A stretch of 55,795 bases of DNA from a virus. The position numbers and the translations under genes were made by a program. Shown one piece after another: positions 1,587 to 19,683 of the stretch. Within the stretch, counting starts at the first letter, position 1. Every line of letters starts with the position of its first letter. The notes under the pieces were generated by a model. That model made no database searches. It saw only the letters and a program-made list of their open reading frames with translations, and was not told where the DNA came from. The stretch lies in the IMG/VR virus record IMGVR_UViG_3300029267_001302; one strand, written 5' to 3'.

Positions 1587-2621
1587 TTACATTTCGTTGT
1601 CTTGCGTCAACTTTCGCTCAGCTTCCGTATCCCACACGTTTTCCAACCGCTGATTCGCAAGCCTAACGTATTCGGGTTCACGCTCAAACCCGATAAAATT
1701 CCGGCCTAGCCTCGCCGCAGCCACCGCTGTAGTTCCGCTTCCCATAAAGCAATCGAGTACGATCGCGCCTTCGTTTGAGCTATGACGAATGATATTTTCG
1801 ATTAGTTCGACGGGCTTTGGCGTGATGTGGCCGAGTTTCGGGGCGACTTCGTAATTCCAAACGGAATGGTGCGTTTTTTGATTATTGAAGACGTAGCGTA
1901 AGTTTTCGTATTCTTGGCGTAATTGTTCGTATTCAGCACGAAGCGAATCGTATGAACGCGGCTCGAAATCCGCTCGCCGCGGTAATTTTAGCAAATCCTC
2001 ATACGTTTCTAGCGTTGGTAAATCCCATTGAGCTGAGTTCCAACGAAAGCAATGATCGGCGCGCTGGCCTATTCGATCAATGATCGCTTTCTTCGTTAGT
2101 CCAAGCGCTTCTTGAAACTCGCGAAAGTAGTTTCGTAGAGTCGTAAAATTGTCGAGTGAGTGTTTAACGCGAGTCAGCCCCGTCTCATCCTGAAACGTAT
2201 AAAACAAACAATATTCCGCCATTTGCTGATAATTTCGAAGTCCGCCCGTTTCTACAAACCCGTCGAGAAATCCTTTATTCCGCGCGCCTTCAAACCGTTT
2301 ATTCCATACGATAAACTGCTTAAATACAAGCGATGTATTTTCGTTAATAGCCCGATGCAACTCGACGATCTGCTCGAAATCATTATGAAACCAGTAAAAC
2401 GACCCGTTCGGCTTCAACACGCGCTCACATTCGCGAAAAACTTCCGTCATCCACGCCACATAATCATCAACGCTCCGCCACTTGTCCCAACGTTGGTCCT
2501 TGCCGATGTTATAAGGCGGGTCTATTACGATAAGGTCAACGCTATCATTCGGCAACAAACGCATGCCTTCGATACAATCCATCTGATAAATCCGGTTTAA
2601 TTCTAATCTCTTTTCGCTCAT
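1587..2621 (-). CDS. Beta-class N6-adenine/N4-cytosine DNA methyltransferase
   Basis: The DPPY motif (IVIDPPYNIG) is N-terminal and the SAM-binding FMGSGTT motif is C-terminal. This is the beta-class motif order. No cognate nuclease is present. Confidence 0.85.
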   Translation of the reverse strand: MSEKRLELNRIYQMDCIEGMRLLPNDSVDLIVIDPPYNIGKDQRWDKWRSVDDYVAWMTEVFRECERVLKPNGSFYWFHNDFEQIVELHRAINENTSLVFKQFIVWNKRFEGARNKGFLDGFVETGGLRNYQQMAEYCLFYTFQDETGLTRVKHSLDNFTTLRNYFREFQEALGLTKKAIIDRIGQRADHCFRWNSAQWDLPTLETYEDLLKLPRRADFEPRSYDSLRAEYEQLRQEYENLRYVFNNQKTHHSVWNYEVAPKLGHITPKPVELIENIIRHSSNEGAIVLDCFMGSGTTAVAAARLGRNFIGFEREPEYVRLANQRLENVWDTEAERKLTQDNEM

Positions 2622-3026
2622 TTACCGCTCCCCTTTTTTCGACTTGTACTTCCGATCCATATACGCATTCTCCGCCTTACTTCGCTTTCTTCGCGTCGGC
2701 TTTTCGTGCTTGCGCCCGTCACTAGCGACATATTCAAGCGGCGCCATGCCGACTTCGTGCCTTTCGATTTCCTCGCGCTGCCTTTCGCTGTGTATCGGAT
2801 GTTCGGTGTTGCGCGTTTTCCACGGCGTTGCGTCCGTCACCTCCTCGTACAAGCAAAGCGTTGCCAGCCGGTCAAGATGCGACGGATCAGGCCGACGACC
2901 AGTTGCGTCGATGTACTCGTCCGTCAGCCGTTCAATTGCGGCGAACCGGTCAGCGCGCGACAGTTTGCCCGCCTTTGTTTGCGTCCATAGATCGTTGATT
3001 CGTGCGTTAAATTGTTCGAAATTCAT
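2622..3026 (-). CDS. Hypothetical basic protein
   Basis: 134-aa ORF packed between the two methylase genes. It overlaps its upstream neighbour by 4 nt. Confidence 0.65.
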   Translation of the reverse strand: MNFEQFNARINDLWTQTKAGKLSRADRFAAIERLTDEYIDATGRRPDPSHLDRLATLCLYEEVTDATPWKTRNTEHPIHSERQREEIERHEVGMAPLEYVASDGRKHEKPTRRKRSKAENAYMDRKYKSKKGER

Positions 3027-4234
3027 TGTGCAACCTCCCCTGTTCGCGCTTCGATAATTTCAACGTACTCTTCTTCGCGTTCAATTCCGATAAACCCAAA
3101 ACCTTCGCGCTTGGCTGCTACTAACGTACTTCCGCTTCCCGCAAACGGATCGAGTACGGTGCCGCCAGGCGGAGTGACTAAGCGAACAAGCCACGCCATG
3201 AGATCAACGGGTTTGACCGTTGGGTGCGTGTTGCGGTTGAATGTCTGCTTACCTAGCGAACCGTCAGCGCGCCCCTTTAATCCACCAGCTACGCGCTCAT
3301 CTAATGCAATTTCATCACCGCGCCAATCGCTATTTCGGTCGCGCTTGCTTGCTTTTTTCGAAAGTTCTTGCGGTGTCACGTTGCAGTATTTCGACCAAAA
3401 GGCGTCGGGTTCGGTTGTGACGATGTTTGCGGGGAAGCGTCCTGTATTAACGGAAGGATTCGGCGCCTGCCTATCTGTTCTCCCCTCAGCTTCTCTCCAT
3501 GCGTTGGATACTTCGCCGCTACTGCGTATTTCATCGTCTCCAATCCTACACCCATTCATATTAATTGCGCCTGTGCCGTATTTCTCCACGTTGTCGCATA
3601 CCGTGCCTTCTAACGGTTTTCTCGCGACAATAATCGGTTCATGTGCCGGCTTTAATGCCGTTCCCCAGCCGTCCCATTTCTTCGCTAATTCGGTTGCTGG
3701 GGCGGTTATTTTTACCGTCCTACTAGCGCGACTTTTACCATTATTCCAATTATAACGACCCTCTCCGTTATCGCTTCCTACACCGTCATTACGAGTCCCG
3801 ATAACTTCCCTTTCCGCGCCCGCTCGCTTATCAAACGCCTTGCTCACGTCCATCGACTTAGGGAAGCCGCTAAAATACAGCCATTCGATCACGTCACGCA
3901 CTTCAAAGCCCGCCAATCGCAAGCTAATCGTCATTAAGTCTTGCGTTCTTGTTCCAGCAAACACAAGCGCATGTCCGCCCGGCTTTAACACTCGGTACAC
4001 TTCGCGCCAAATATCAGGATGTGGCACAAAAGAATCCCAGCGCTTACCCATAAAGCCGCCATGCCCGTGATCGTAAGGCTCGCCGTTGATCCATTTCGTT
4101 AGCACCTCGACAATGTCCGGTTCTTTTGATAAGCCGTATGGCGGATCTGTTACGACGCTATCTACGCTGCTGTCTGGTAACTCTTTCAATCGATCGATAC
4201 AGTCGCCTTTTAAAATCGTGTATTCTTTCGTCAT
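3023..4234 (-). CDS. Beta-class N6-adenine/N4-cytosine DNA methyltransferase
   Basis: Motifs VVTDPPYG near the N-terminus and DPFAGSGST near the C-terminus. I place the start at ATG 4234, which is preceded by AAGGGGGAG. The longer track ORF (to 4396) would overlap 4249..4551. Confidence 0.85.
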   Translation of the reverse strand: MTKEYTILKGDCIDRLKELPDSSVDSVVTDPPYGLSKEPDIVEVLTKWINGEPYDHGHGGFMGKRWDSFVPHPDIWREVYRVLKPGGHALVFAGTRTQDLMTISLRLAGFEVRDVIEWLYFSGFPKSMDVSKAFDKRAGAEREVIGTRNDGVGSDNGEGRYNWNNGKSRASRTVKITAPATELAKKWDGWGTALKPAHEPIIVARKPLEGTVCDNVEKYGTGAINMNGCRIGDDEIRSSGEVSNAWREAEGRTDRQAPNPSVNTGRFPANIVTTEPDAFWSKYCNVTPQELSKKASKRDRNSDWRGDEIALDERVAGGLKGRADGSLGKQTFNRNTHPTVKPVDLMAWLVRLVTPPGGTVLDPFAGSGSTLVAAKREGFGFIGIEREEEYVEIIEARTGEVAQ

Positions 4235-4248
4235 TTTATCGCTCCCCC

Positions 4249-4551
4249 TTATTCGCTTGTAATTGCGCACCATTCGCCCATTCTCGCCCACACTTCGTAC
4301 ACACGCGCCACCTTCGCCGTTGCCACCGTAACCAGCCGATTGACGGTTTGCTTGCTGGCGCCCATCCGCTCGCCCGCTTCCACCTGCGATAAGCACTCGA
4401 AATACACTAGCGTAAGTGCCTCACGCTGGCGCTTCGTTAAGCCGGCCTTTTCGATCGCCGTATCCAAGTCAACGAGCAAGATAACTGCGTCATAGTCGCC
4501 GTTATATTGACGCTCAACTAGCGCGTGATAGTCGCGTAATAAGCGTTTCAC
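4249..4551 (-). CDS. Sigma-70 region-4-like HTH regulator (ArpU/RinA-type late-activator candidate)
   Basis: LTKRQREALTLVYFECLSQVEAGERMGASKQTVNRLV matches the region-4 HTH pattern of small phage sigma-like regulators. Confidence 0.5.
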   Translation of the reverse strand: MKRLLRDYHALVERQYNGDYDAVILLVDLDTAIEKAGLTKRQREALTLVYFECLSQVEAGERMGASKQTVNRLVTVATAKVARVYEVWARMGEWCAITSE

Positions 4552-7870: not shown

Positions 7871-8049
7871 TCGTCACCCTCCTTGTATTTCAAAGTATCT
7901 CGTACATCATTCCAGTAATCTATTGTCTCCTGTTTGAAATTCGTTTTTACACCGTTCCCAGACTTCTCGTACCATTTCGCGAATATGTGCAGGAAATAAA
8001 ACGGGATACAGAATATAACGCATAATACTTTAACGGTTATAAGTCGCAT
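7867..8049 (-). CDS. Small membrane protein
   Basis: 60-aa ORF with the hydrophobic N-terminal half VKVLCVIFCIPFYFLHIF. Confidence 0.55.
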   Translation of the reverse strand: MRLITVKVLCVIFCIPFYFLHIFAKWYEKSGNGVKTNFKQETIDYWNDVRDTLKYKEGDE

Positions 8050-8087
8050 TCCGCCCTCACCCCGCCATTTTCGAAATCAAATTCGAG

Positions 8088-8606
8088 TTATTTATATAAC
8101 GTTCCCGAACTACCGAACCCGCCTTCGCCGCGCTCTGTTTCGTCCAGCTCGTCAACCTCGATAAAGTGCGCCTGCTCGACCGGCTTGATTACCGCTTGCG
8201 CGATTTTTTCGCCTTTACGAATCAAGTACGTATCGTTTGGGTACATTTCGCCGTCTGTACGATAATCTAAACCGTCAATATATGTTAGATATTGCGATTC
8301 ATTACCGCACGGGTCTTCCGCAATATTATCGACAATCACACCGATTTCTCCACGGTAACTCGAATCAACCGTGCCAAGCACAACTCGTAATTTCGTCCGC
8401 AGGCTGATACCGCTGCGTGGTCGCACTTGTAATTCGTAGCCCGGCGGTAGTTCGAACGCCAAGCCTGTGCGGACTAACTTCGTTTCGCCCGGCTCTATCA
8501 CCGTATCTTCGATTGCGACAAGGTCAAAGCCGGCATCGCCTTCGTGTGCGTATCGCGGAATAACTGCGTCAGGGTGTATGCGTTTGATTTTAACGTTCAC
8601 TTTCAT
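8088..8606 (-). CDS. dut: dUTP pyrophosphatase (trimeric dUTPase)
   Basis: Motifs GDAGFDL, RPRSG, GTVDSSYRGEIGVIV and RGEGGFGSSG. The ATG at 8606 follows GGAGGAG. Confidence 0.9.
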   Translation of the reverse strand: MKVNVKIKRIHPDAVIPRYAHEGDAGFDLVAIEDTVIEPGETKLVRTGLAFELPPGYELQVRPRSGISLRTKLRVVLGTVDSSYRGEIGVIVDNIAEDPCGNESQYLTYIDGLDYRTDGEMYPNDTYLIRKGEKIAQAVIKPVEQAHFIEVDELDETERGEGGFGSSGTLYK

Positions 8607-8739
8607 CCGTATCTCCTCCATCGCTTAATTTTCGTAAGCCATCGCTATTTCTCTCGATTACTTTCGCAGCAATTTTTCGGACTTTTTCTGTTCGCTCATC
8701 TTGTTCGTTAGTCCAGCGCCATAAATCATCGTTTGTCAT
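8590..8739 (-). CDS. Small hypothetical protein (49 aa)
   Basis: Absent from the ORF track. Its ATG overlaps the stop of the C5-MTase (ATGA at 8736-8739). Confidence 0.45.
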   Translation of the reverse strand: MTNDDLWRWTNEQDERTEKVRKIAAKVIERNSDGLRKLSDGGDTDESER

Positions 8740-9947
8740 TCGCTATCAACTCTTGTTTTTGCGTTGTTTAACTGTTCGGCAAGCGCTACCCCTAGCTTAT
8801 AAGCCACTAGCGAAGGAATACCGCTGCATCTTTCGTACTGTTTTTCTAATGGAATATCGTCAGAAAAAGAGAACCAATCTGGGACTGATTGTATTCGGAG
8901 ACATTCCCGGACGGTAAATCTACGTGGCGGAGGTACGTCGTATTCGTCCATTTTTCTTATGTCGTAATTAGGCGGCTCGGGATGTAAAGGTAATTGTCTT
9001 GCACATGAGACGATTGTAAAACTCGGTTCGTCCCATTGTTTTTGTCTGTTTCGCGACTTATACCTCGATGAAAATCCGCCGTCGTAGTATTTATCGTGAT
9101 TATCGATAATTTGAGCGTTGTTCTTTCCGTTCATTACAGAGGTAATCGTGTAAGCAGGCTTATCAAACGAGACTTTTCTCAAAAATCCTGTTCTTCCACC
9201 TCCCGAATTGAAGGCTCCTCCTAAAAATTTGCGTTGATCTTCTTCCGGCAAGTCTCTCCAATTTCCACCAGGCGGTATTTTATCGATAAACGGTGCTTCA
9301 TCTTTTCGAATCCCATAACCTCTATGATTGTTAATTCCGTTTGGCTCGGGTAAGTCTCCTATTACGTCACGCAGCACTTTTCGTTCGTTTTCAGGAACTG
9401 GCTCAGGGAATTTATATTTAATCTCGATGTCTTTTCGAATACCAACAATGAAAACTCTCTCTCGTAATTGTGCAACCCCATAGTCAAAGCAGTTAATTAA
9501 TTTCCATTCAACGTTATAGCCGGCATTTGTAAAGTTCTCGATCAACTCATTGAAAAAAGTACGGTGCTTTTTCGATATAATCCCTTTTACGTTCTCGCCA
9601 ATAAATGCTTTCGGTTGATTGTCTCGAACTAAACGGAATAAATGATAACCTAAATCACCATTTTTCTTATCCTTTACCCCTTCACCTTTTCCGGCAAAGC
9701 TAAACGGAGTACAAGGGAACCCGCCGACATAAACATCAGCATATGGCACTTCCGAGCTTTTTAATTTTCTAATATCTGCGACCCTCGCGTGATTTCCGAT
9801 GTTTCTGTTGTACGTATCAACCGCATATTTTTTAATATCAATCGCATCGATAATCGTATAACCCGCTAATTTAAACCCCACCGCTCCGATACCGGCGCCA
9901 CAGAATAAGTCAACCATTGTAAGACCATTGCTTTCTAATTGCTCCAA
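8736..9947 (-). CDS. C5-cytosine DNA methyltransferase-fold enzyme with atypical motif X (candidate DNA carboxymethyltransferase)
   Basis: Motifs I FCGAGIG, IV GGFPCTPFSFAG, VI ENVKG, VIII QLRERVFIVG and IX RRFTVRECLRIQSVPDWF are present. Motif X reads YERCSGIPSLVA instead of ..QxGN(A/S)VP... The likely start is TTG 9947, 8 nt after GGAGG. The track ORF extends to 10031 and an ATG at 9917 is an alternative start. Confidence 0.85.
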   Translation of the reverse strand: MEQLESNGLTMVDLFCGAGIGAVGFKLAGYTIIDAIDIKKYAVDTYNRNIGNHARVADIRKLKSSEVPYADVYVGGFPCTPFSFAGKGEGVKDKKNGDLGYHLFRLVRDNQPKAFIGENVKGIISKKHRTFFNELIENFTNAGYNVEWKLINCFDYGVAQLRERVFIVGIRKDIEIKYKFPEPVPENERKVLRDVIGDLPEPNGINNHRGYGIRKDEAPFIDKIPPGGNWRDLPEEDQRKFLGGAFNSGGGRTGFLRKVSFDKPAYTITSVMNGKNNAQIIDNHDKYYDGGFSSRYKSRNRQKQWDEPSFTIVSCARQLPLHPEPPNYDIRKMDEYDVPPPRRFTVRECLRIQSVPDWFSFSDDIPLEKQYERCSGIPSLVAYKLGVALAEQLNNAKTRVDSE

Positions 9948-9960
9948 AGTAGACACCTCC

Positions 9961-10653
9961 TCACTTGATAGCGATAAGTCCGACAAAGTTATTCCATTTG
10001 AAAAACATGTCAATATCTTTAAAACCTGCATTTTCTAGCAAATTAATGTTTTCGTTAACGGTAAGAGGACGTAAAACTCCACGAATTGATCGAGCTTTCT
10101 TGAATACTTCCTCCTCGGTAACGCCGTTTTTTAACTTTAATTCGTGACACAATTCGACCCACATTTCATTAAATCGGGCGTTATTACCGATGACTTTCTC
10201 GACTAGGATAAATCCGCCGCCTTCGTTTAGACCGTCGAATACCTTGTTTATTAGTGACTGTCTGTAACGTTGAGGTACGAATTGGAGCGTTAAGACGGAA
10301 GTCACTAGACAAGCGTCAATTATTTTAAACGTTTCATTTGTTATATCATCTAGGACGATTCTTACACGACTGTCGCCTTTAAAAGTATTTTTTGCTTTTT
10401 CGACCATTTCTCGAGACAAGTCTATTCCGATATATCTCACCTCTTTTGTCGGATATTTTCGGGTTAAGTTCGAAATAACTTTTCCTGTAGAAGTTCCGAT
10501 GTCGTAAACGCATGAACCGTCTTCTATAAACCACCCCGCCAATTCCGCAACTAGATGGTGTATTTCTTCGTATAAAGGAACGTGTTGTTTTACATGCTCA
10601 TTAAAAATCGGTGTCACGTTTTCGTCGAACTTCCAAATAGAAACTCCGCTCAA
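9961..10653 (-). CDS. cmoA: Carboxy-S-adenosyl-L-methionine synthase homologue (CmoA family)
   Basis: Full-length pattern match to E. coli CmoA, aligned from memory. Shared blocks are WKFDENVTPIF..VPLY, VYDIGTSTG, LTLQFVPQRYRQSLINKVFDGLNEGGGFILVEK and the C-terminal FKWNNFVGLIAIK. The TTG start overlaps the upstream stop (TTGA). Confidence 0.8.
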   Translation of the reverse strand: MSGVSIWKFDENVTPIFNEHVKQHVPLYEEIHHLVAELAGWFIEDGSCVYDIGTSTGKVISNLTRKYPTKEVRYIGIDLSREMVEKAKNTFKGDSRVRIVLDDITNETFKIIDACLVTSVLTLQFVPQRYRQSLINKVFDGLNEGGGFILVEKVIGNNARFNEMWVELCHELKLKNGVTEEEVFKKARSIRGVLRPLTVNENINLLENAGFKDIDMFFKWNNFVGLIAIK

Positions 10654-10787
10654 TCACTATCAACCTCCTCTTTAATTTCGCGCATCATTTCGCGCCATGT
10701 CTTTTTCGGAATCTTACCTTCTCGCATCAGCTTCAATTCGTTTAACGCTTCGATAAGTGATTTTCGCAAATCTCGTTTATCCGTCAT
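10650..10787 (-). CDS. Small hypothetical protein (45 aa)
   Basis: Absent from the ORF track. GAGGTTGAGAG lies before ATG 10787, and the stop overlaps the CmoA-like start. Confidence 0.5.
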   Translation of the reverse strand: MTDKRDLRKSLIEALNELKLMREGKIPKKTWREMMREIKEEVDSD

Positions 10788-10853
10788 TCGCTCTCAACCT
10801 CCGTAATATCTCGTTCATTTACGCGCTTTACGGCGTGCCCGTCATCGCCGGAC

Positions 10854-11570
10854 TTAAACATTCCCTCTCGCTTCCAACTCCGCAAATTCCGGCGCCATCT
10901 CGTGATTTCGCAAAATATCCTCAACGATTTCCACAACCGGATGGCGCTGAACTTCCGTTAAGTTAATATGATCGAAATATTCGTATGCTTCTCGCTCATA
11001 TAAACCGGCAAGCAACCGGTAAAGCCCATTCGTTTTCGTGTTCCGTAGTTTCGTGTTGTCAATTTGCGCGAAGTTCCCGATGAATACGAATTTCGAACCA
11101 ATTGTCGGTCTTGTTGCGATCGCTGCGATTGTATGAACGTCGAGGTTCTGCGCTTCATCTAGCATGAGAAATGCGTGATTGATTGATCGTCCACGAATCG
11201 TTTGAATCGAATCGAAAAATATCTTGCGTTTGTCGTCGTCGCCTTCCGCAAAGTATTTCTTCAATTCGCTAGGTTTGGCGGTCATAACTTCAAGATTATC
11301 CATGAACGGTGCGACGAACGGATAAGTCTTTTCGTTTAAGTCGCCAGGCAATGCGCCAACGTCCATGCCTAACTGCGTTTGAAGTCGTGTGTAAATCAAT
11401 TTGCGGTAGCGTCGCGTTTCAATCGTATGTTCCAGCCCGACTGCTTGCGCGATTAAGGATTTACCGGTACCTGCGGGCCCCGTTAGAAACGTGAAAGGCT
11501 TGTCGTTAATCAACGCCTGCATGGCTCGTTTTTGAGCGTCATTTTTCGCCGATATTCCGAAAAACGCCAA
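10854..11570 (-). CDS. phoH: PhoH-like ATPase
   Basis: Walker A GPAGTGKS, Walker B FLMLDEAQN, and a PhoH-type C-terminus. Confidence 0.85.
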   Translation of the reverse strand: MAFFGISAKNDAQKRAMQALINDKPFTFLTGPAGTGKSLIAQAVGLEHTIETRRYRKLIYTRLQTQLGMDVGALPGDLNEKTYPFVAPFMDNLEVMTAKPSELKKYFAEGDDDKRKIFFDSIQTIRGRSINHAFLMLDEAQNLDVHTIAAIATRPTIGSKFVFIGNFAQIDNTKLRNTKTNGLYRLLAGLYEREAYEYFDHINLTEVQRHPVVEIVEDILRNHEMAPEFAELEARGNV

Positions 11571-17049: not shown

Positions 17050-17851
17050 TCACGCAATCATCCCTTTCTCTTTTCTCGCAAACCACTCGTCAACCGTCAT
17101 ACCTTCGCCCCACCTTAGCGACAACTCAATGTCCGTCTTGTTCGGCACGTTACCGAAACGATACGTATTAATCATCACATCCTCAAATTCCGCAATATCT
17201 TCGCGAGTAATAGTGTTTGGAACTAACAAAAGCACCTCGTCGTGTATAGTCGCGAGCAATCGCCAACCTTTTCGTTTACATAATTCATGTAGTCGCACGA
17301 TCGTTGTCTTCGTTTGAATTGCGCTTGTTCCTTGAATGACGGCATTTGGGCCTTGTCGCAATGCTCTCGACACATCTGCGTCATAACCAAACGTTCGCTT
17401 TTTCGCTTCTGGCAACCGCCGTTTTCGTTGTTGCTTATCCATCCAAACGAATCCATTCTTACGACAAAACGCCTGTGTTTCGTCAATCCAACGTTTAACG
17501 TTAGCGTGTTTTTTGAAAAATTTGTTGAGAAAGTCCTTCGCTTCTTCAACGGTGCAGCTAAGCTGTTGCGAAAGAGTTGTCGGCCCCGTTCCGTATAGCG
17601 CCGCAAGCACGCCTGTTTTCATTGCTTTTCGCTCCGGTGTGCCGTCGCCGCATTCTTCGTATGGCTTCCCGTAAAAATCAGATGCCATTGAAGCGTAAAC
17701 GTCGCGACCTTCGGCATAAGCGTTAAGCAATACTGGTTCTTGTGTAAAATAAGCAGCGCAACGAATCTCTTGTTGCGAAAAGTCTCCGCCCAAAATAACC
17801 CAACCTTCCGGTGCAACAAACAGTTTTCGAGCAGATTTCGGCTGATTTTGT
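17050..17851 (-). CDS. polA: DNA polymerase I family (family A), exon 2
   Basis: It begins (L)QNQPKSARKLFVAPEGWVILGGDFSQQEIR, which matches the Pol I NLQNIP...DYSQIELR motif A region, and continues through the palm and finger motifs to a stop at 17050. Confidence 0.85.
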
Positions 17852-18185
17852 CCAATTGTTATTAACCGTCGGCTCTTTATCCGACGCTCCGGAGGTTTCC
17901 CTCATTTTCATCGACCGGTCAATTCCGGTCCGGTGTAGACTATATCATCGACTGTCAAGGTAAACGAATCTAAAGCCAGCTGGCTTTTAATTTGACAGTC
18001 GCCCCGCTTTCGTGCCGCTTTACCGCCGTCGACTTTACGTTACGGCTCCATGCGGTAGTCGTTGCACCTTCCGTGGGTTTCCCCATCGGCTTGGCTCATG
18101 GTTGCCCTCGACTTTAATCGTTAGGGGTTTCCATGAATTAACGGGGTACTGCACACATAGTCGCCTATGTGCCGCCCTTTTCTAA
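17852..18185 (-). ncRNA. Group I self-splicing intron (ORF-less, 334 nt) in the DNA polymerase gene
   Basis: Exon 1 ends ..AACCU and the intron ends ..CAAUUGG (omega-G). Removal restores GNGVNL-QNQP in frame. It contains GACUA and GAUAUAGUC (the P7/J8-7 R and S consensus blocks) and several GNRA-capped hairpins (GCGA, GAAA x2). Confidence 0.8.
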
Positions 18186-19525
18186 AGGTTAACGCCATTA
18201 CCACCGCTCGAAAACCGCCCCGTCCGCGCGCCCATCGGATTGAATCGTGCGTGTAACCGTCCAGTATTCGGATGAATCAACTCTGGCAAAACGCTAATAT
18301 AAGTTGAATAAAGTTTGACGAGTTCTTTGTATTCTAGAAGTTCCGCAATTACCGGAAATTTATTTTTCAACGGTTTTAATACTTTCTTTGCATCCGTTGA
18401 TTCAAGCGAATGACCAACGATCTTTTCGAGCGCAGGCTTCAATTGTGCCGGACTGTTTAGATTTATGTCGCCTAGTTTCGATTTCAGCGACCGTTCCTTT
18501 TCCTCAATGTCACGCATCATTTCATTGCCATACTTTTTCGCATAGTCAACGTCAATAAGAAAGCCTGTCTGCTCCATGTCAACAATCGCGTCAAGCAACG
18601 GAACCTCAACCGTTTCGTAATAACGCAACATATTCGGAAATTTCGCCATATGATGACGTTGAAACTCATACAAACGCCATGTCAAATGAGTGTCTTTCGC
18701 CGCGTAAACAAGCGCAACATCTAACGGTATTTCTGCGAATTTAGCGTTTTTACCAAATAGTTCATCGAAAGTGTCCGACGGTTCACGTAAATATTTCGTT
18801 GCTAAATTTTTTAAGGCAAACGACGGTTCGTTTTCGTTCAGCATCGACATTGCTGTTTGTGTATCCCATCGCAAGCCCTGCACGCGAATTCCGTGCCGAA
18901 TAAACATATGAATATCGAAAATGGCGTTATGAAGCACTTTGCCAATCGTTGCGCTTTCGAGATACTCACACAAACCTTCGAGTACATATTCACGATCAAG
19001 CTGCTCGCCTTGTGTATGTCCAATCGGAATATAAACGTGTTTGTCTGCGTTCGGAAGTGTAATAGAAATACCGACTATTTCATCAGCGAAATGGTCAACG
19101 CCTGTTGTTTCGGTATCAAGCGCAATGATCGGTTCGTTCGTCAATTCGTCTAATAACGCTTGAAACTGCTCATCAGTCGTTATCAATTTGTAGTTACTCG
19201 GCGTTTCTTCAACCATGCGCCGTAACGTTTCTTCGCGCTTTCGTTCCTGCAAATCTTGCCACAAGCGAAGTGCCTCCGCTTTGCTAAACGCTTTAGGTCG
19301 ACCGGACTTCGTTACACAATCTTGCGGGTTACGACCGATCAAGCCGGCGTCCATCGCTTCTTTAACTTCCGTTAATTTCCTCCGGTCAGATTCAGTCAAT
19401 TTCATTACGAAAATCCGCCGCCAAGCGTCAGCGAGCGATTCGCTCGCCACGTTTCGTCGCTCATTCGCTTGACGTGCGCGTTCAGTTGCGTTAGAATCGA
19501 TTTTAAGCGAAAGTTTCAAATTCAA
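18186..19525 (-). CDS. polA: DNA polymerase I family, exon 1 (3'-5' exonuclease domain plus N-terminal polymerase domain)
   Basis: Exo motifs IIALDTETTG, HNAIFDIHM and YAAKDTHL. The exon ends RTGRFSSGGNGVN-L. The probable start is TTG 19525, which lies 9 nt after AAGGAG and overlaps the upstream stop; the track start is 19534. Confidence 0.85.
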
Positions 19526-19683
19526 CGCAACCAACTCCTTTTGTATTCGTCAACAAACGTTTCGTGAAACCATTCTTCGAAACATGATTCATCGCAAAAA
19601 TATTGCTCGGAGAATCGGTCGTAAATGGCGAGTGTGTCGTCTAGTATTACGCCGCACACGACACACTCTACGCCGTCAGTCAA
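19522..19683 (-). CDS. Small TRASH/MYM-type zinc-finger-like protein (about 53 aa)
   Basis: Absent from the ORF track. The cysteine spacing is C-x2-C-x19-C-x3-C (ECVVCG...YFCDESC). Its stop overlaps the polymerase TTG start (TTGA). The start codon is uncertain (TTG 19683, TTG 19689 or GTG 19692). Confidence 0.45.
   Translation of the reverse strand: MTDGVECVVCGVILDDTLAIYDRFSEQYFCDESCFEEWFHETFVDEYKRSWLR

What the first reader, a model, noticed from the sequence alone, without database searches (positions are those of the whole stretch)
8814..8840. Motif X of the C5-MTase lacks the canonical GN(A/S)VP and reads Q-Y-E-R-C-S-G-I-P
C5-cytosine MTases normally end with motif X, ..Q-x-G-N-(A/S)-V-P.., whose Asn lies next to the methionine moiety of SAM. 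Here the equivalent segment (cag tac gaa aga tgc agc ggt att cct on the minus strand) is QYERCSGIPSLVA. My best alignment puts Ser in place of Asn, Cys in place of Gly, and an Arg two residues upstream.

As I recall, substituting this motif X Asn (N374 in M.MpeI) with a basic residue is what converted an engineered CpG MTase into a Cx-SAM-using carboxymethyltransferase. A natural enzyme with a remodelled motix X carrying a nearby Arg, sitting next to a Cx-SAM synthase, fits altered cofactor specificity.
Basis: partly seen in the sequence, partly recalled or inferred. Interest (0 to 1): 0.7.

Follow-up and report, generated by a model that had tools for sequence, protein, structure and literature searches.

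The report
Variant phage DNA carboxymethyltransferase, Cx-SAM linked
A phage DNA cytosine methyltransferase lost the usual cofactor-contacting asparagine in a way that tracks almost perfectly with a neighbouring carboxy-SAM synthase gene, so it very probably adds carboxymethyl rather than methyl groups to DNA, by a different route from the one natural enzyme of this kind described so far.

Summary
Window 8814-8840 (-) encodes Q-Y-E-R-C-S-G-I-P in a C5-cytosine methyltransferase that keeps every other catalytic motif. There is no GN(A/S)V anywhere in its C-terminus.

Close canonical relatives read QYEIVGNGIP, which fixes the register:
- Ser replaces the Asn.
- The preceding Gly is deleted.
- Cys sits at -2 and Arg at -3.

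The gene lies 13 nt downstream of a full-length CmoA (carboxy-SAM synthase) homologue, behind its own Shine-Dalgarno site.

Across 107 distinct related loci:
- 16 of 20 well-flanked R-C/T-S-G-I-P enzymes have cmoA beside them, and four have a CmoY-type amide ligase.
- 0 of 56 canonical GN relatives have cmoA nearby.

A natural phage carboxymethyltransferase is already published: CmoX, PDB 8YF3 (Nat Commun, Dec 2025). That paper defines the family by an SPPC motif plus Arg350 at the Asn position. This enzyme has GFPC and Ser there, is closest to M.HaeIII, and keeps only the Arg that aligns with SpCmoX Arg347.

It is therefore a new variant of a known kind, probably an independent recruitment to Cx-SAM. 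Cofactor use and the role of the Arg are inferred, not shown. The window has no CmoY, so plain 5-carboxymethylcytosine is the expected product.

The parts
8814..8840 (-). Remodelled motif X, Q398-Y-E-R401-C402-S403-G-I-P406 in 431-aa ORF numbering (R373 and S375 in the 403-aa protein). Ser is in the Asn column, the Gly is deleted, and Arg is at -3.
   Evidence: In the AF2 model this is the loop 401-406 between helices 395-400 and 407-430, with block pLDDT 89.
8736..9947 (-). C5-cytosine DNA (carboxy)methyltransferase gene, 403 aa, TTG start. The maximal ORF runs to 10031.
   Evidence: PF00145 225.9 bits. Database protein P0001 is 100% identical and 403 aa. The best solved relative is M.HaeIII (E 8e-54; Foldseek TM 0.88).
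9954..9960 (-). Shine-Dalgarno sequence GGAGGTG for the MTase. It directly follows the cmoA stop codon (9961-9963) and lies 6 nt before the TTG start.
   Evidence: Sequence read. The position of the called start comes from P0001.
9961..10653 (-). cmoA-like gene for carboxy-S-adenosyl-L-methionine synthase, 230 aa.
   Evidence: TIGR00740 E 2e-48, 165 bits, full length. The biochemically validated SpCmoA scores only 115.6 bits on the same model. The best PDB matches are YecO (1im8) and E. coli CmoA (4gek), aligned end to end. It is 33% identical to SpCmoA.
9711..9722 (-). Motif IV, G-F-P-C, with the catalytic Cys107 (Cys79 in the 403-aa protein). It is GFPC, not the SPPC used to define published CmoX.
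   Evidence: C107 is invariant in alignment A1.
9885..9905 (-). Motif I, F43-C-G-A46-G-I-G (cofactor loop). Ala46 is one of the eight columns that separate the cmoA-linked enzymes from the canonical sisters, which have Gly.
9117..9314 (-). Variable-region module A (about aa 240-305; GGNWRDLP...GGGRTGFLRKVSFDKPAYTITS). It is absent from M.HaeIII and from the ~320-aa relatives.
   Evidence: pLDDT is low.
8952..9089 (-). Variable-region module B (about aa 315-360; SRNRQKQWDEPSFTIVSCARQLPLHP). It resembles the M.HaeIII target-recognition region, so GGCC is the likely target.
   Evidence: HMMER alignment of aa 304-414 to HaeIII 203-317. One relative is named fnuDIM by its source. GGCC is the most depleted 4-nt palindrome in the window.

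Best explanation
The window is a temperate siphovirus-type phage genome that carries a two-gene cassette, cmoA followed by a C5-MTase.

Proposed mechanism:
- CmoA converts SAM (with prephenate) into carboxy-SAM.
- The downstream HaeIII-like C5-cytosine transferase uses carboxy-SAM instead of SAM.
- It applies the ordinary covalent Cys mechanism (Cys107 attacks C6, and C5 attacks the cofactor), and so writes 5-carboxymethylcytosine into phage DNA. The likely target is GGCC, possibly plus a second site read by the extra variable-region module.
- The modification protects the DNA from host restriction.

The cofactor switch is encoded mainly in motif X. The Asn that packs against the SAM methyl or methionine moiety is replaced by the small Ser403. 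The preceding Gly is deleted. An Arg (R401) is introduced two residues upstream. Together these changes open room for the extra carboxylate and supply a positive charge.

What is shown: the sequence features, the operon structure, and the co-occurrence with cmoA and cmoY. What is inferred: Cx-SAM use, the product, the target site, and Arg401 as the carboxylate ligand. The window has no CmoY-type ligase, so 5cxmC itself would be the end product here.
For: 1. Precedent. A natural phage CmoA plus CmoX system makes 5cxmC, and its crystal structure shows an Arg on the Cx-SAM carboxylate (PMC12783734). Engineered N374K/R in M.MpeI, N377K in M.MedI and Y205K/R in M.CviPI do the same.

2. Operon. The cmoA stop codon, a GGAGGTG Shine-Dalgarno site and the MTase TTG start lie within 13 nt.

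3. CmoA identity. It matches TIGR00740 and E. coli CmoA over their full length, and scores higher on TIGR00740 than the validated SpCmoA.

4. Association. Of 37 distinct R-[C/T]-S-G-I-P loci, 24 have cmoA in the fetched DNA, and 16 of the 20 with adequate flanks do. None of 66 distinct canonical GN loci has it (0 of 56 with adequate flanks). Fisher p = 4e-13. The linkage holds down to about 44% MTase identity and 27% CmoA identity, in phages, prophages and plasmids of Bacillus, Paenibacillus and Aneurinibacillus.

5. CmoY. Four R-C-S loci (L026, L216, L230, L244) also carry a homologue of CmoY, the 5cxmC amide ligase (E 3e-12 to 1e-34).

6. Discriminating columns. Only eight alignment columns cleanly separate cmoA-linked enzymes from the nested canonical clade. 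Four of them are the motif X columns (R/I, C/V, gap/G, S/N) and one is Ala46 in the motif I cofactor loop.

7. Arg at -3 recurs. It is found in two other cmoA-linked lineages: 22 of 22 SPPC-type enzymes including SpCmoX read WER[LIV]GR..VPP, and L106 reads YRRPSRSV. It was never seen in the roughly 85 canonical loci, which have I, V or F there.

8. Other catalytic motifs are intact: FxGxG, PC, ENV, QxRxR and RE.
Against: - There is no biochemical or structural measurement for this protein or any member of its clade.
- The validated enzyme uses Arg350 at the Asn column, and its R350N mutant, which keeps Arg347 (the residue aligned with R401), was inactive with both cofactors. Arg at -3 is therefore not sufficient in that scaffold.
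- Four well-flanked R-C-S loci from marine assemblies (L207, L212, L217, L240) show no cmoA within 5 kb.
- Staphylococcus phage MTases linked to cmoA and cmoY read YDVVGGVIN, with no Arg at all. An Arg in motix X is thus not universal among candidate carboxymethyltransferases.
- I could not obtain model coordinates, so the distance from Arg401 to the cofactor was not measured.
- The window's CmoA scores below NCBIfam's curated cut-off (165 against 193.3 bits).
Confidence: 0.72

Rival explanations
1. The enzyme is a carboxymethyltransferase, but Arg401 is not the carboxylate ligand. In this reading the shortened C-S-G loop provides the Ser hydroxyl and backbone amides as an anion pocket, or a residue outside motif X does so. 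Arg401 would then hold the methionine alpha-carboxylate of the cofactor, or serve a structural role, as Arg347 may do in SpCmoX.
For: SpCmoX R350N retains Arg347 and is dead. Staphylococcus phage enzymes linked to cmoA and cmoY have Gly at the Asn column and no nearby Arg. Small residues (S, G) at position 0 recur. Ala46 in motif I also co-varies with the cofactor type.
Against: Arg at -3 is invariant in the 105 R-C-S sequences of the tree set and recurs in three separate cmoA-linked lineages, yet was never seen in canonical relatives. The one-residue deletion brings Arg401 to i-2 of Ser403. Cationic side chains are what confer Cx-SAM use in three engineered enzymes.
Confidence: 0.3
2. The enzyme is an ordinary SAM-dependent GGCC methyltransferase with a tolerated degenerate motif X. 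In this reading the neighbouring CmoA serves another purpose, such as SAM depletion against host defences or tRNA modification.
For: All catalytic motifs except motif X are canonical and the fold is closest to M.HaeIII. Some natural C5-MTases lack Asn at this structural position; for example M.CviPI has Tyr205. Four R-C-S loci lack a nearby cmoA. 58 of 80 viral cmoA loci have no C5-MTase within 5 kb, so CmoA has other contexts.
Against: The variant is tightly and anciently linked to cmoA, and canonical sisters show no such linkage. A 5cxmC-specific ligase family co-occurs with the variant. The genes appear translationally coupled. The canonical GN state correlates with absence of cmoA even inside the same clade.
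Confidence: 0.08
3. The enzyme is promiscuous and uses both SAM and Cx-SAM. The product would depend on how far CmoA has converted the SAM pool during infection.
For: Engineered N-to-K enzymes keep methyltransferase activity, and wild-type M.MedI shows weak carboxymethylation. Ser at position 0 does not obviously exclude SAM. Some clade members have no adjacent cmoA.
Against: Natural SpCmoX accepts only Cx-SAM. The strict conservation of R-C-S-G-I-P, and the change back to G-N where cmoA is absent, argue for specialisation.
Confidence: 0.15

Closest known systems
CmoX of Synechococcus phage S-B43 (SpCmoX, PDB 8YF3) with phage CmoA and CmoY (Yang et al., Nat Commun 2025, PMC12783734)
   Same: Both are phage-encoded C5-MTase homologues next to a phage CmoA, and both have motif X remodelled so that the Asn is lost. 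Both carry Glu-Arg at -4/-3 (SpCmoX TERVGRMVP, window YERC-SGIP). Some relatives of the window enzyme also carry CmoY-type ligases. The expected chemistry is the same: Cx-SAM to 5cxmC through the catalytic Cys.
   Different: - Identity is only about 20%, the phmmer match covers the N-terminal half only (E 1e-15), and Foldseek ranks it 10th with TM 0.70.
- Motif IV is GFPC, not SPPC.
- The Asn column is Ser, not Arg350, and the loop is one residue shorter.
- The target region is HaeIII-like (probably GGCC) rather than GC.
- The window has no CmoY.
- The enzyme falls outside the paper's operational definition (SPPC + R350).
M.HaeIII (GGCC C5-methyltransferase; PDB 1DCT, 3UBT)
   Same: It is the best sequence and fold match (E 8e-54; TM 0.88). 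Motifs I-IX are collinear, and the target-recognition segment SRNRxxQW(D/N)EP(S/A)FT(I/V) is closely similar.
   Different: HaeIII has the canonical YKMIGNAVP and uses SAM. The window enzyme has YERC-SGIP, a 74-aa extra module between motif VIII and the HaeIII-like recognition region, and a linked cmoA.
Engineered carboxymethyltransferases M.MpeI N374K, M.MedI N377K, M.CviPI Y205K/R
   Same: In each, cofactor specificity is redirected to Cx-SAM by changing the residue at the motif X Asn site and introducing a cationic side chain.
   Different: In the engineered enzymes the cation replaces the Asn itself. Here the Asn site is Ser and the cation sits two residues upstream in a shortened loop. 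The engineered enzymes also keep SAM activity.
SPbeta/phi3T-type phage C5-MTases (for example Bacillus phage phi18-2 gp83 and phi3T)
   Same: They belong to the same broad family in phages and prophages of Bacillales, with 40-54% identity and modular variable regions.
   Different: They have the canonical QYRIVGNG(I/V)A motif X and no cmoA within 10 kb.

Membership tests
C5-cytosine DNA methyltransferase superfamily (PF00145 / TIGR00675) | Profile match above the curated threshold | tested here: met
   PF00145 225.9 bits against a cut-off of 22. TIGR00675 205.7 bits against 100.65.
C5-cytosine DNA methyltransferase superfamily (PF00145 / TIGR00675) | Catalytic motifs I (FxGxG), IV (PC), VI (ENV), VIII (QxRxR) and IX (RE) | tested here: met
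   F43/G45/G47, P106-C107, E146-N147-V148, Q188/R190/R192 and R375-E376 are all invariant in the 40-sequence alignment A1.
C5-cytosine DNA methyltransferase superfamily (PF00145 / TIGR00675) | Motif X G-N-(A/S)-V with the cofactor-contacting Asn | tested here: not met
   The motif reads ERC-SGIP, and there is no GN in the last 60 residues.
CmoX as defined in PMC12783734 | 'SPPC' motif IV (S95 P96 P97 C98) | tested here: not met
   The window has G-F-P-C. All 21 SPPC-type enzymes found next to viral cmoA differ from it.
CmoX as defined in PMC12783734 | Arg at the HhaI Asn304 column (R350) | tested here: not met
   That column is Ser403. The window's Arg401 aligns with SpCmoX Arg347. The identity of R350 was confirmed from the paper's mutagenic primer.
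CmoX as defined in PMC12783734 | Genomic linkage to a phage cmoA (and often cmoY) | tested here: met
   cmoA ends 13 nt upstream. 16 of 20 well-flanked clade members are linked to cmoA, and four are linked to cmoY. The window itself has no cmoY.
CmoX as defined in PMC12783734 | Cx-SAM-dependent formation of 5-carboxymethylcytosine in DNA | not testable with these tools
   This needs an enzyme assay with LC-MS, or analysis of virion DNA.
HaeIII-like GGCC methyltransferases | HaeIII-type target-recognition region and overall fold | tested here: met
   aa 304-414 align to HaeIII 203-317 (7.5e-15). Foldseek TM 0.88 to 1dct. The actual GGCC specificity was not tested.
CmoA, carboxy-SAM synthase (for the neighbouring gene) | TIGR00740 equivalog score above the curated cut-off | tested here: not met
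   165 bits against a cut-off of 193.3. However, the experimentally validated SpCmoA scores only 115.6, so the cut-off excludes true phage CmoA.
CmoA, carboxy-SAM synthase (for the neighbouring gene) | Full-length homology to structurally characterised CmoA | tested here: met
   aa 5-230 align end to end to E. coli CmoA (4gek) and H. influenzae YecO (1im8), with E 3e-31 and 8e-33.

The most novel reading that the evidence does not exclude
This clade may be a second, independently evolved solution for using carboxy-SAM on DNA. It is HaeIII-like, has a modular variable region (possibly bispecific), and reads four-base sites.

In this reading, recognition of the carboxylate comes from Asn-to-Ser, a one-residue loop deletion and an Arg at -3, not from an Arg at the Asn site. 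The switch would also be evolutionarily reversible. A 20-member canonical G-N subclade and the singleton P0031 (EMCGNGIP) nest inside the R-C-S clade and have no cmoA beside them. That would give a natural minimal set of switch residues between methyl and carboxymethyl transfer.
Probability: 0.45. Interest if true: 0.7.

Novelty: new variant of a known kind. Interest (0 to 1): 0.55.

Why it matters
Natural DNA carboxymethylation was described only in late 2025, and its family was defined by one sequence signature (SPPC + Arg350). This locus suggests that the signature misses at least one whole lineage. That lineage is widespread in phages, prophages and plasmids of Bacillales and in metagenomes, and appears to reach the same chemistry with a different active-site arrangement.

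If confirmed, it would:
- widen the census of 5cxmC in nature, especially in Gram-positive hosts that are not known to make Cx-SAM themselves;
- provide a natural carboxymethyltransferase with a longer recognition site (probably GGCC), which the CmoX authors named as an engineering goal;
- give a compact, naturally tested set of switch residues (Arg at -3, Gly deletion, Asn to Ser, plus Ala46 in motif I) for converting methyltransferases into carboxymethyltransferases used in epigenome-sequencing methods.

Tried and rejected
- **Megablast of 8000-11000 against GenBank phages.** No match. The nearest cultured-phage MTase, Bacillus phage phi18-2, turned out to be canonical (QYRIVGNGIA) and has no cmoA.
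- **Alignment to HhaI alone.** It suggested QYER = QFGN, with Arg at the Asn column (0.2 bits). I rejected this because close canonical relatives, HaeIII, SpCmoX and three independent MAFFT runs all place Ser at the Asn column with a one-residue gap.
- **Profile search of PDB with the family alignment.** It did not extend the 8yf3 match into motif X. I took the SpCmoX sequence from the S-B43 genome instead.
- **Search for a CmoY-type ligase in the window.** tblastn, phmmer at E<=10 and a PP-loop motif scan found nothing. Pfam scans of 25 window ORFs, including all those flanking the cassette, showed no amide ligase. About a dozen ORFs of 150 aa or more, mostly in the structural-gene region, were not Pfam-scanned.
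- **Measuring the Arg401-to-cofactor distance.** The structure tools return no coordinates, so only secondary structure, pLDDT and fold matches could be used.
- **The intermediate variants.** P0025 (ERCGGGIP) and P0031 (EMCGNGIP) sit near contig ends. The 238 nt and 530 nt upstream are non-coding, so there is no adjacent cmoA, but a distant one cannot be excluded.
- **Literature.** I found no mention of Arg347, GFPC-type or Bacillus-type CmoX in the CmoX paper, its supplements or other held papers.
- **CmoA catalytic residues.** I did not attempt a residue-level check because I could not verify the residue numbering from a source.
Full report
**1. The observation**

The minus strand of 8840..8814 reads CAG TAC GAA AGA TGC AGC GGT ATT CCT, which is Q-Y-E-R-C-S-G-I-P. 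It lies near the C-terminus of ORF 8736..10031 (431 aa). That ORF is a C5-cytosine DNA methyltransferase by Pfam (PF00145, 225.9 bits) and NCBIfam (TIGR00675, 205.7 bits).

The true start is almost certainly the TTG at 9947. An identical 403-aa protein (P0001) is called in public assemblies. A GGAGGTG Shine-Dalgarno site sits 6 nt upstream of that TTG and directly after the stop codon of the preceding gene. I keep the 431-aa ORF numbering used in the alignments; subtract 28 for the 403-aa protein.

After motif IX (RECLRIQ) the sequence runs SVPDWFSFSDDIPLEKQYERCSGIPSLVAYKLGVALAEQLNNAKTRVDSE.

**2. The register**

M.HaeIII is the best solved relative (E 8e-54). HMMER aligns YERC-SGIP to YKMIGNAVP with a one-residue gap. 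A very weak HhaI alignment instead suggested QYER = QFGN, so I tested the register with close homologues.

- Of the 120 best database hits, about 95 read Q-Y-E-R-C-S-G-I-P (a few have QR, AR or R-T-S).
- About 22 hits, at 54-58% identity to the window enzyme, read Q-Y-E-I-V-G-N-G-I-P, which is one residue longer.
- Two look intermediate: P0025 reads ERCGGGIP and P0031 reads EMCGNGIP.

Three MAFFT alignments place the gap opposite the Gly and put Ser403 opposite the Asn. The register is therefore Arg401 at -3, Cys402 at -2, Gly(-1) deleted and Ser403 at 0. 'Cys for Gly' is an artefact of an ungapped alignment.

An AlphaFold2 model (mean pLDDT 76.7) puts residues 401-406 in the loop between helices 395-400 and 407-430, with pLDDT about 89. 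This is the usual place of motif X. Foldseek ranks M.HaeIII first (TM 0.88) and the carboxymethyltransferase 8YF3 tenth (TM 0.70, 20% identity).

**3. The neighbouring gene**

ORF 9961..10653 (230 aa) matches the CmoA equivalog TIGR00740 over its full length (E 2e-48, 165 bits). This is below the curated 193.3-bit cut-off. However, the biochemically validated phage enzyme SpCmoA scores only 115.6 bits on the same model.

The best solved relatives are H. influenzae YecO and E. coli CmoA, both aligned end to end. The gene is 33% identical to SpCmoA.

**4. What is already known**

It extends to M.MedI N377K and M.CviPI Y205K/R (PMC13288465; PMC12015181).

More importantly, Yang et al. (Nat Commun, Dec 2025, PMC12783734) showed the following:
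- Synechococcus phage S-B43 encodes CmoA, a C5-MTase homologue (CmoX) and an amide ligase (CmoY).
- CmoX accepts only Cx-SAM and makes 5cxmC at GC sites.
- In the 1.9 A structure (8YF3), Arg350 replaces HhaI Asn304 and contacts the carboxymethyl group.
- The R350N mutant is inactive with both cofactors.

They then defined 5,615 candidate CmoX sequences by the SPPC motif plus R350. The general idea behind the finding is therefore already published.

**5. How this enzyme differs from published CmoX**

I translated SpCmoX from the S-B43 genome. Its motif X is Q-T-E-R347-V-G-R350-M-V-P-P. The paper's R350N primer confirms which Arg is R350.

Aligned with the window enzyme, Arg401 matches Arg347, and Ser403 matches the key Arg350. 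Motif IV here is GFPC, not SPPC. The window enzyme thus fails both criteria of the published definition. It belongs to a HaeIII-like lineage that is only distantly related to SpCmoX (phmmer E 1e-15, N-terminal half only).

**6. Is the variant tied to Cx-SAM?**

I fetched related loci from IMG/VR, GTDB genomes and JGI/ENA metagenomes, and by exact protein look-up. I classified each by motif X and searched the flanks for CmoA and CmoY by tblastn. After collapsing identical C-termini there were 107 distinct loci.

| Motif X type | Distinct loci | With cmoA | Well-flanked loci | Well-flanked with cmoA | With CmoY |
|---|---|---|---|---|---|
| R-[C/T]-S-G-I-P | 37 | 24 | 20 | 16 | 4 |
| Canonical G-N | 66 | 0 | 56 | 0 | 0 |

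Four further loci had other motif X forms, described below.

In R-C-S loci, cmoA usually lies immediately upstream, and sometimes immediately downstream. The four loci with a CmoY homologue are L026, L216, L230 and L244 (E 3e-12 to 1e-34). Fisher's exact test gives p = 4e-13. This is not corrected for relatedness, but the linkage persists down to about 44% MTase identity and 27% CmoA identity. It holds across phages, prophages and plasmids: a Bacillus cereus-group contig, a Paenibacillus tianjinensis prophage, an Aneurinibacillus plasmid and Bacillus sp. M6-12.

The four exceptions are L207, L212, L217 and L240, and L217 and L240 are nearly identical. All come from marine assemblies. Their hosts may supply Cx-SAM, as E. 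coli did for SpCmoX, or cmoA may lie further away.

Two R-x-G-G-G-I-P variants (L099, L210) have no adjacent cmoA. Their status is open.

**7. Which residues track the switch**

I compared 105 R-C-S sequences with the 20-member canonical subclade. Only eight columns are fixed differently:
- Ala46/Gly in the motif I cofactor loop;
- Gly104/Ser before motif IV;
- one insertion column;
- Phe389/Ile;
- the four motif X columns (R/I, C/V, gap/G, S/N).

In a neighbour-joining tree built without the motif X columns, the canonical subclade and the singleton P0031 fall inside the R-C-S clade, while SPbeta-type canonical enzymes fall outside. That pattern suggests reversion to methyl transfer after loss of cmoA, or repeated gains. 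An NJ tree without support values cannot decide between these.

**8. Arg at -3 as a recurrent mark**

A cmoA-anchored survey of 80 viral loci found 22 with a C5-MTase within 5 kb.
- 21 are SPPC-type and read W-E-R-[LIV]-G-R-x-V-P-P, with Arg at both -3 and 0.
- One, L106, is GFPC and HhaI-like. It reads Y-R-R-P-S-R-S-V, again with Arg at -3 and 0.
- None of the roughly 85 canonical loci has Arg at -3; they have I, V or F.

In contrast, the Staphylococcus phage MTases next to cmoA (with a cmoY homologue as well in phage vB-SscS-F1) read Y-D-V-V-G-G-V-I-N, with Gly at 0 and no Arg. Candidate carboxymethyltransferases therefore come in at least four motif X flavours. The window type is the only one seen here that combines a small residue at 0, a shortened loop and Arg at -3.

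**9. Mechanism and its limits**

The best-supported reading is that CmoA makes Cx-SAM and the MTase homologue transfers the carboxymethyl group to C5 of its target cytosine by the standard Cys107 mechanism. Ser403 and the Gly deletion would create room, and Arg401 would supply the counter-charge.

The operon, the motif changes and the co-occurrence are shown. The cofactor, the product and the role of Arg401 are inferred.

The main counter-evidence is that SpCmoX R350N, which still has Arg347, is dead. An alternative is that the C-S-G loop itself binds the carboxylate while Arg401 does something else. I could not measure distances because the structure tools return no coordinates.

**10. Target and biology**

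The segment aa 304-414 closely matches the HaeIII recognition region. One homologue is named fnuDIM by its source. GGCC is the most depleted four-base palindrome in the window, with 38 observed against 110 expected. These points are consistent with pressure from GGCC restriction and a GGCC-directed protective modification.

The variable region contains two tandem modules. Relatives carry only module B (about 320 aa) or only module A (P0117), so the window enzyme may read two sites.

No CmoY-like ligase is present in the window. 5cxmC would therefore be the final product.

The window itself is a temperate siphovirus-like genome. It encodes an integrase, terminase, SPP1-type portal, tail proteins, a GH25-LysM lysin, DnaB, primase, PolA, ribonucleotide reductase, ThyX, dUTPase and a dNMP kinase.

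**11. Verdict**

The general phenomenon is already published. This lineage is a new variant that lies outside the published definition and probably arose independently. Biochemical confirmation is straightforward and is described under the next steps.

Noticed in passing
window 17915-18201 (-), between ORFs 18182-19534 and 17050-17793: A group I catalytic intron (Rfam RF00028, 72.7 bits, E 1e-16) interrupts the family-A DNA polymerase gene. The upstream ORF carries the 3'-5' exonuclease domain and the start of the polymerase domain. The downstream ORF carries polymerase profile positions 157-381.
   Followed up: partly
window 1587-2621 (-) and 3023-4396 (-): Two further DNA methyltransferase genes of the N6/N4 class (PF01555, E 1.5e-54 and 3.8e-33). 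The phage therefore carries three DNA-modifying transferases.
   Followed up: no
whole window: GGCC is the most depleted 4-nt palindrome (38 observed against 110 expected from trinucleotide frequencies, ratio 0.35). AGCT (0.56), CGCG (0.65) and GATC (0.72) are also low.
   Followed up: partly
window 8952-9314 (-), MTase aa ~240-360: The variable region consists of two tandem recognition-type modules. Relatives carry only the HaeIII-like module B (P0098, P0089, P0064) or only module A (P0117). This modular layout resembles multispecific phage MTases, and the window enzyme may modify two different sites.
   Followed up: partly
P0008, P0077; L206 124-2112; L235 133-2079: Several close homologues of the MTase (650-735 aa) contain an intein (PF14890 and Hint domain) inserted in the enzyme.
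   Followed up: no
L002 6497-7504 (Staphylococcus phage vB-SscS-F1); L003 5681-6679 (Staphylococcus phage SPbeta-like): C5-MTases directly downstream of cmoA (with a cmoY homologue between them in F1) read GSPC in motif IV and Y-D-V-V-G-G-V-I-N in motif X. The Asn is replaced by Gly and there is no Arg nearby. This is another candidate carboxymethyltransferase type outside the published SPPC+R350 definition.
   Followed up: partly
L106 5697-6917 (IMGVR_UViG_2811995030_000001): A GFPC, HhaI-like MTase next to the viral CmoA closest to the window's (57% identity) reads L-Y-R-R-P-S-R-S-V-S-I-P, with Arg at both the Asn column and -3. It also carries a Cys-rich C-terminal extension.
   Followed up: partly
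L107-L185 (viral cmoA loci): 58 of 80 viral contig loci that encode a CmoA homologue have no recognisable C5-MTase within 5 kb. Phage CmoA may therefore have other partners or roles.
   Followed up: no
L099 239-1459 (P0025, ERCGGGIP); L210 1694-2779 (DRTGGGIP); L098 531-1805 (P0031, EMCGNGIP): These are full-length-loop variants that look like intermediates between the R-C-S and G-N states. None has cmoA in the available upstream sequence. They could mark the path of the cofactor switch or its reversal.
   Followed up: partly
L207, L212, L217, L240 (marine metagenome contigs): These enzymes are R-C-S-G-I-P type; L212, L217 and L240 read K-Q-H-I-R-C-S-G-I-P, while L207 reads K-Q-Y-E-R-C-S-G-I-P. 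They have 5 kb of flank on both sides but no detectable cmoA, and are exceptions to the linkage rule.
   Followed up: partly
L196 (JGI contig Ga0207865_103862, 6842 nt): A metagenome contig carries the same cmoA-MTase cassette at 100% (MTase) and 99.6% (CmoA) protein identity. The phage, or a very close relative, has therefore been sampled independently.
   Followed up: no
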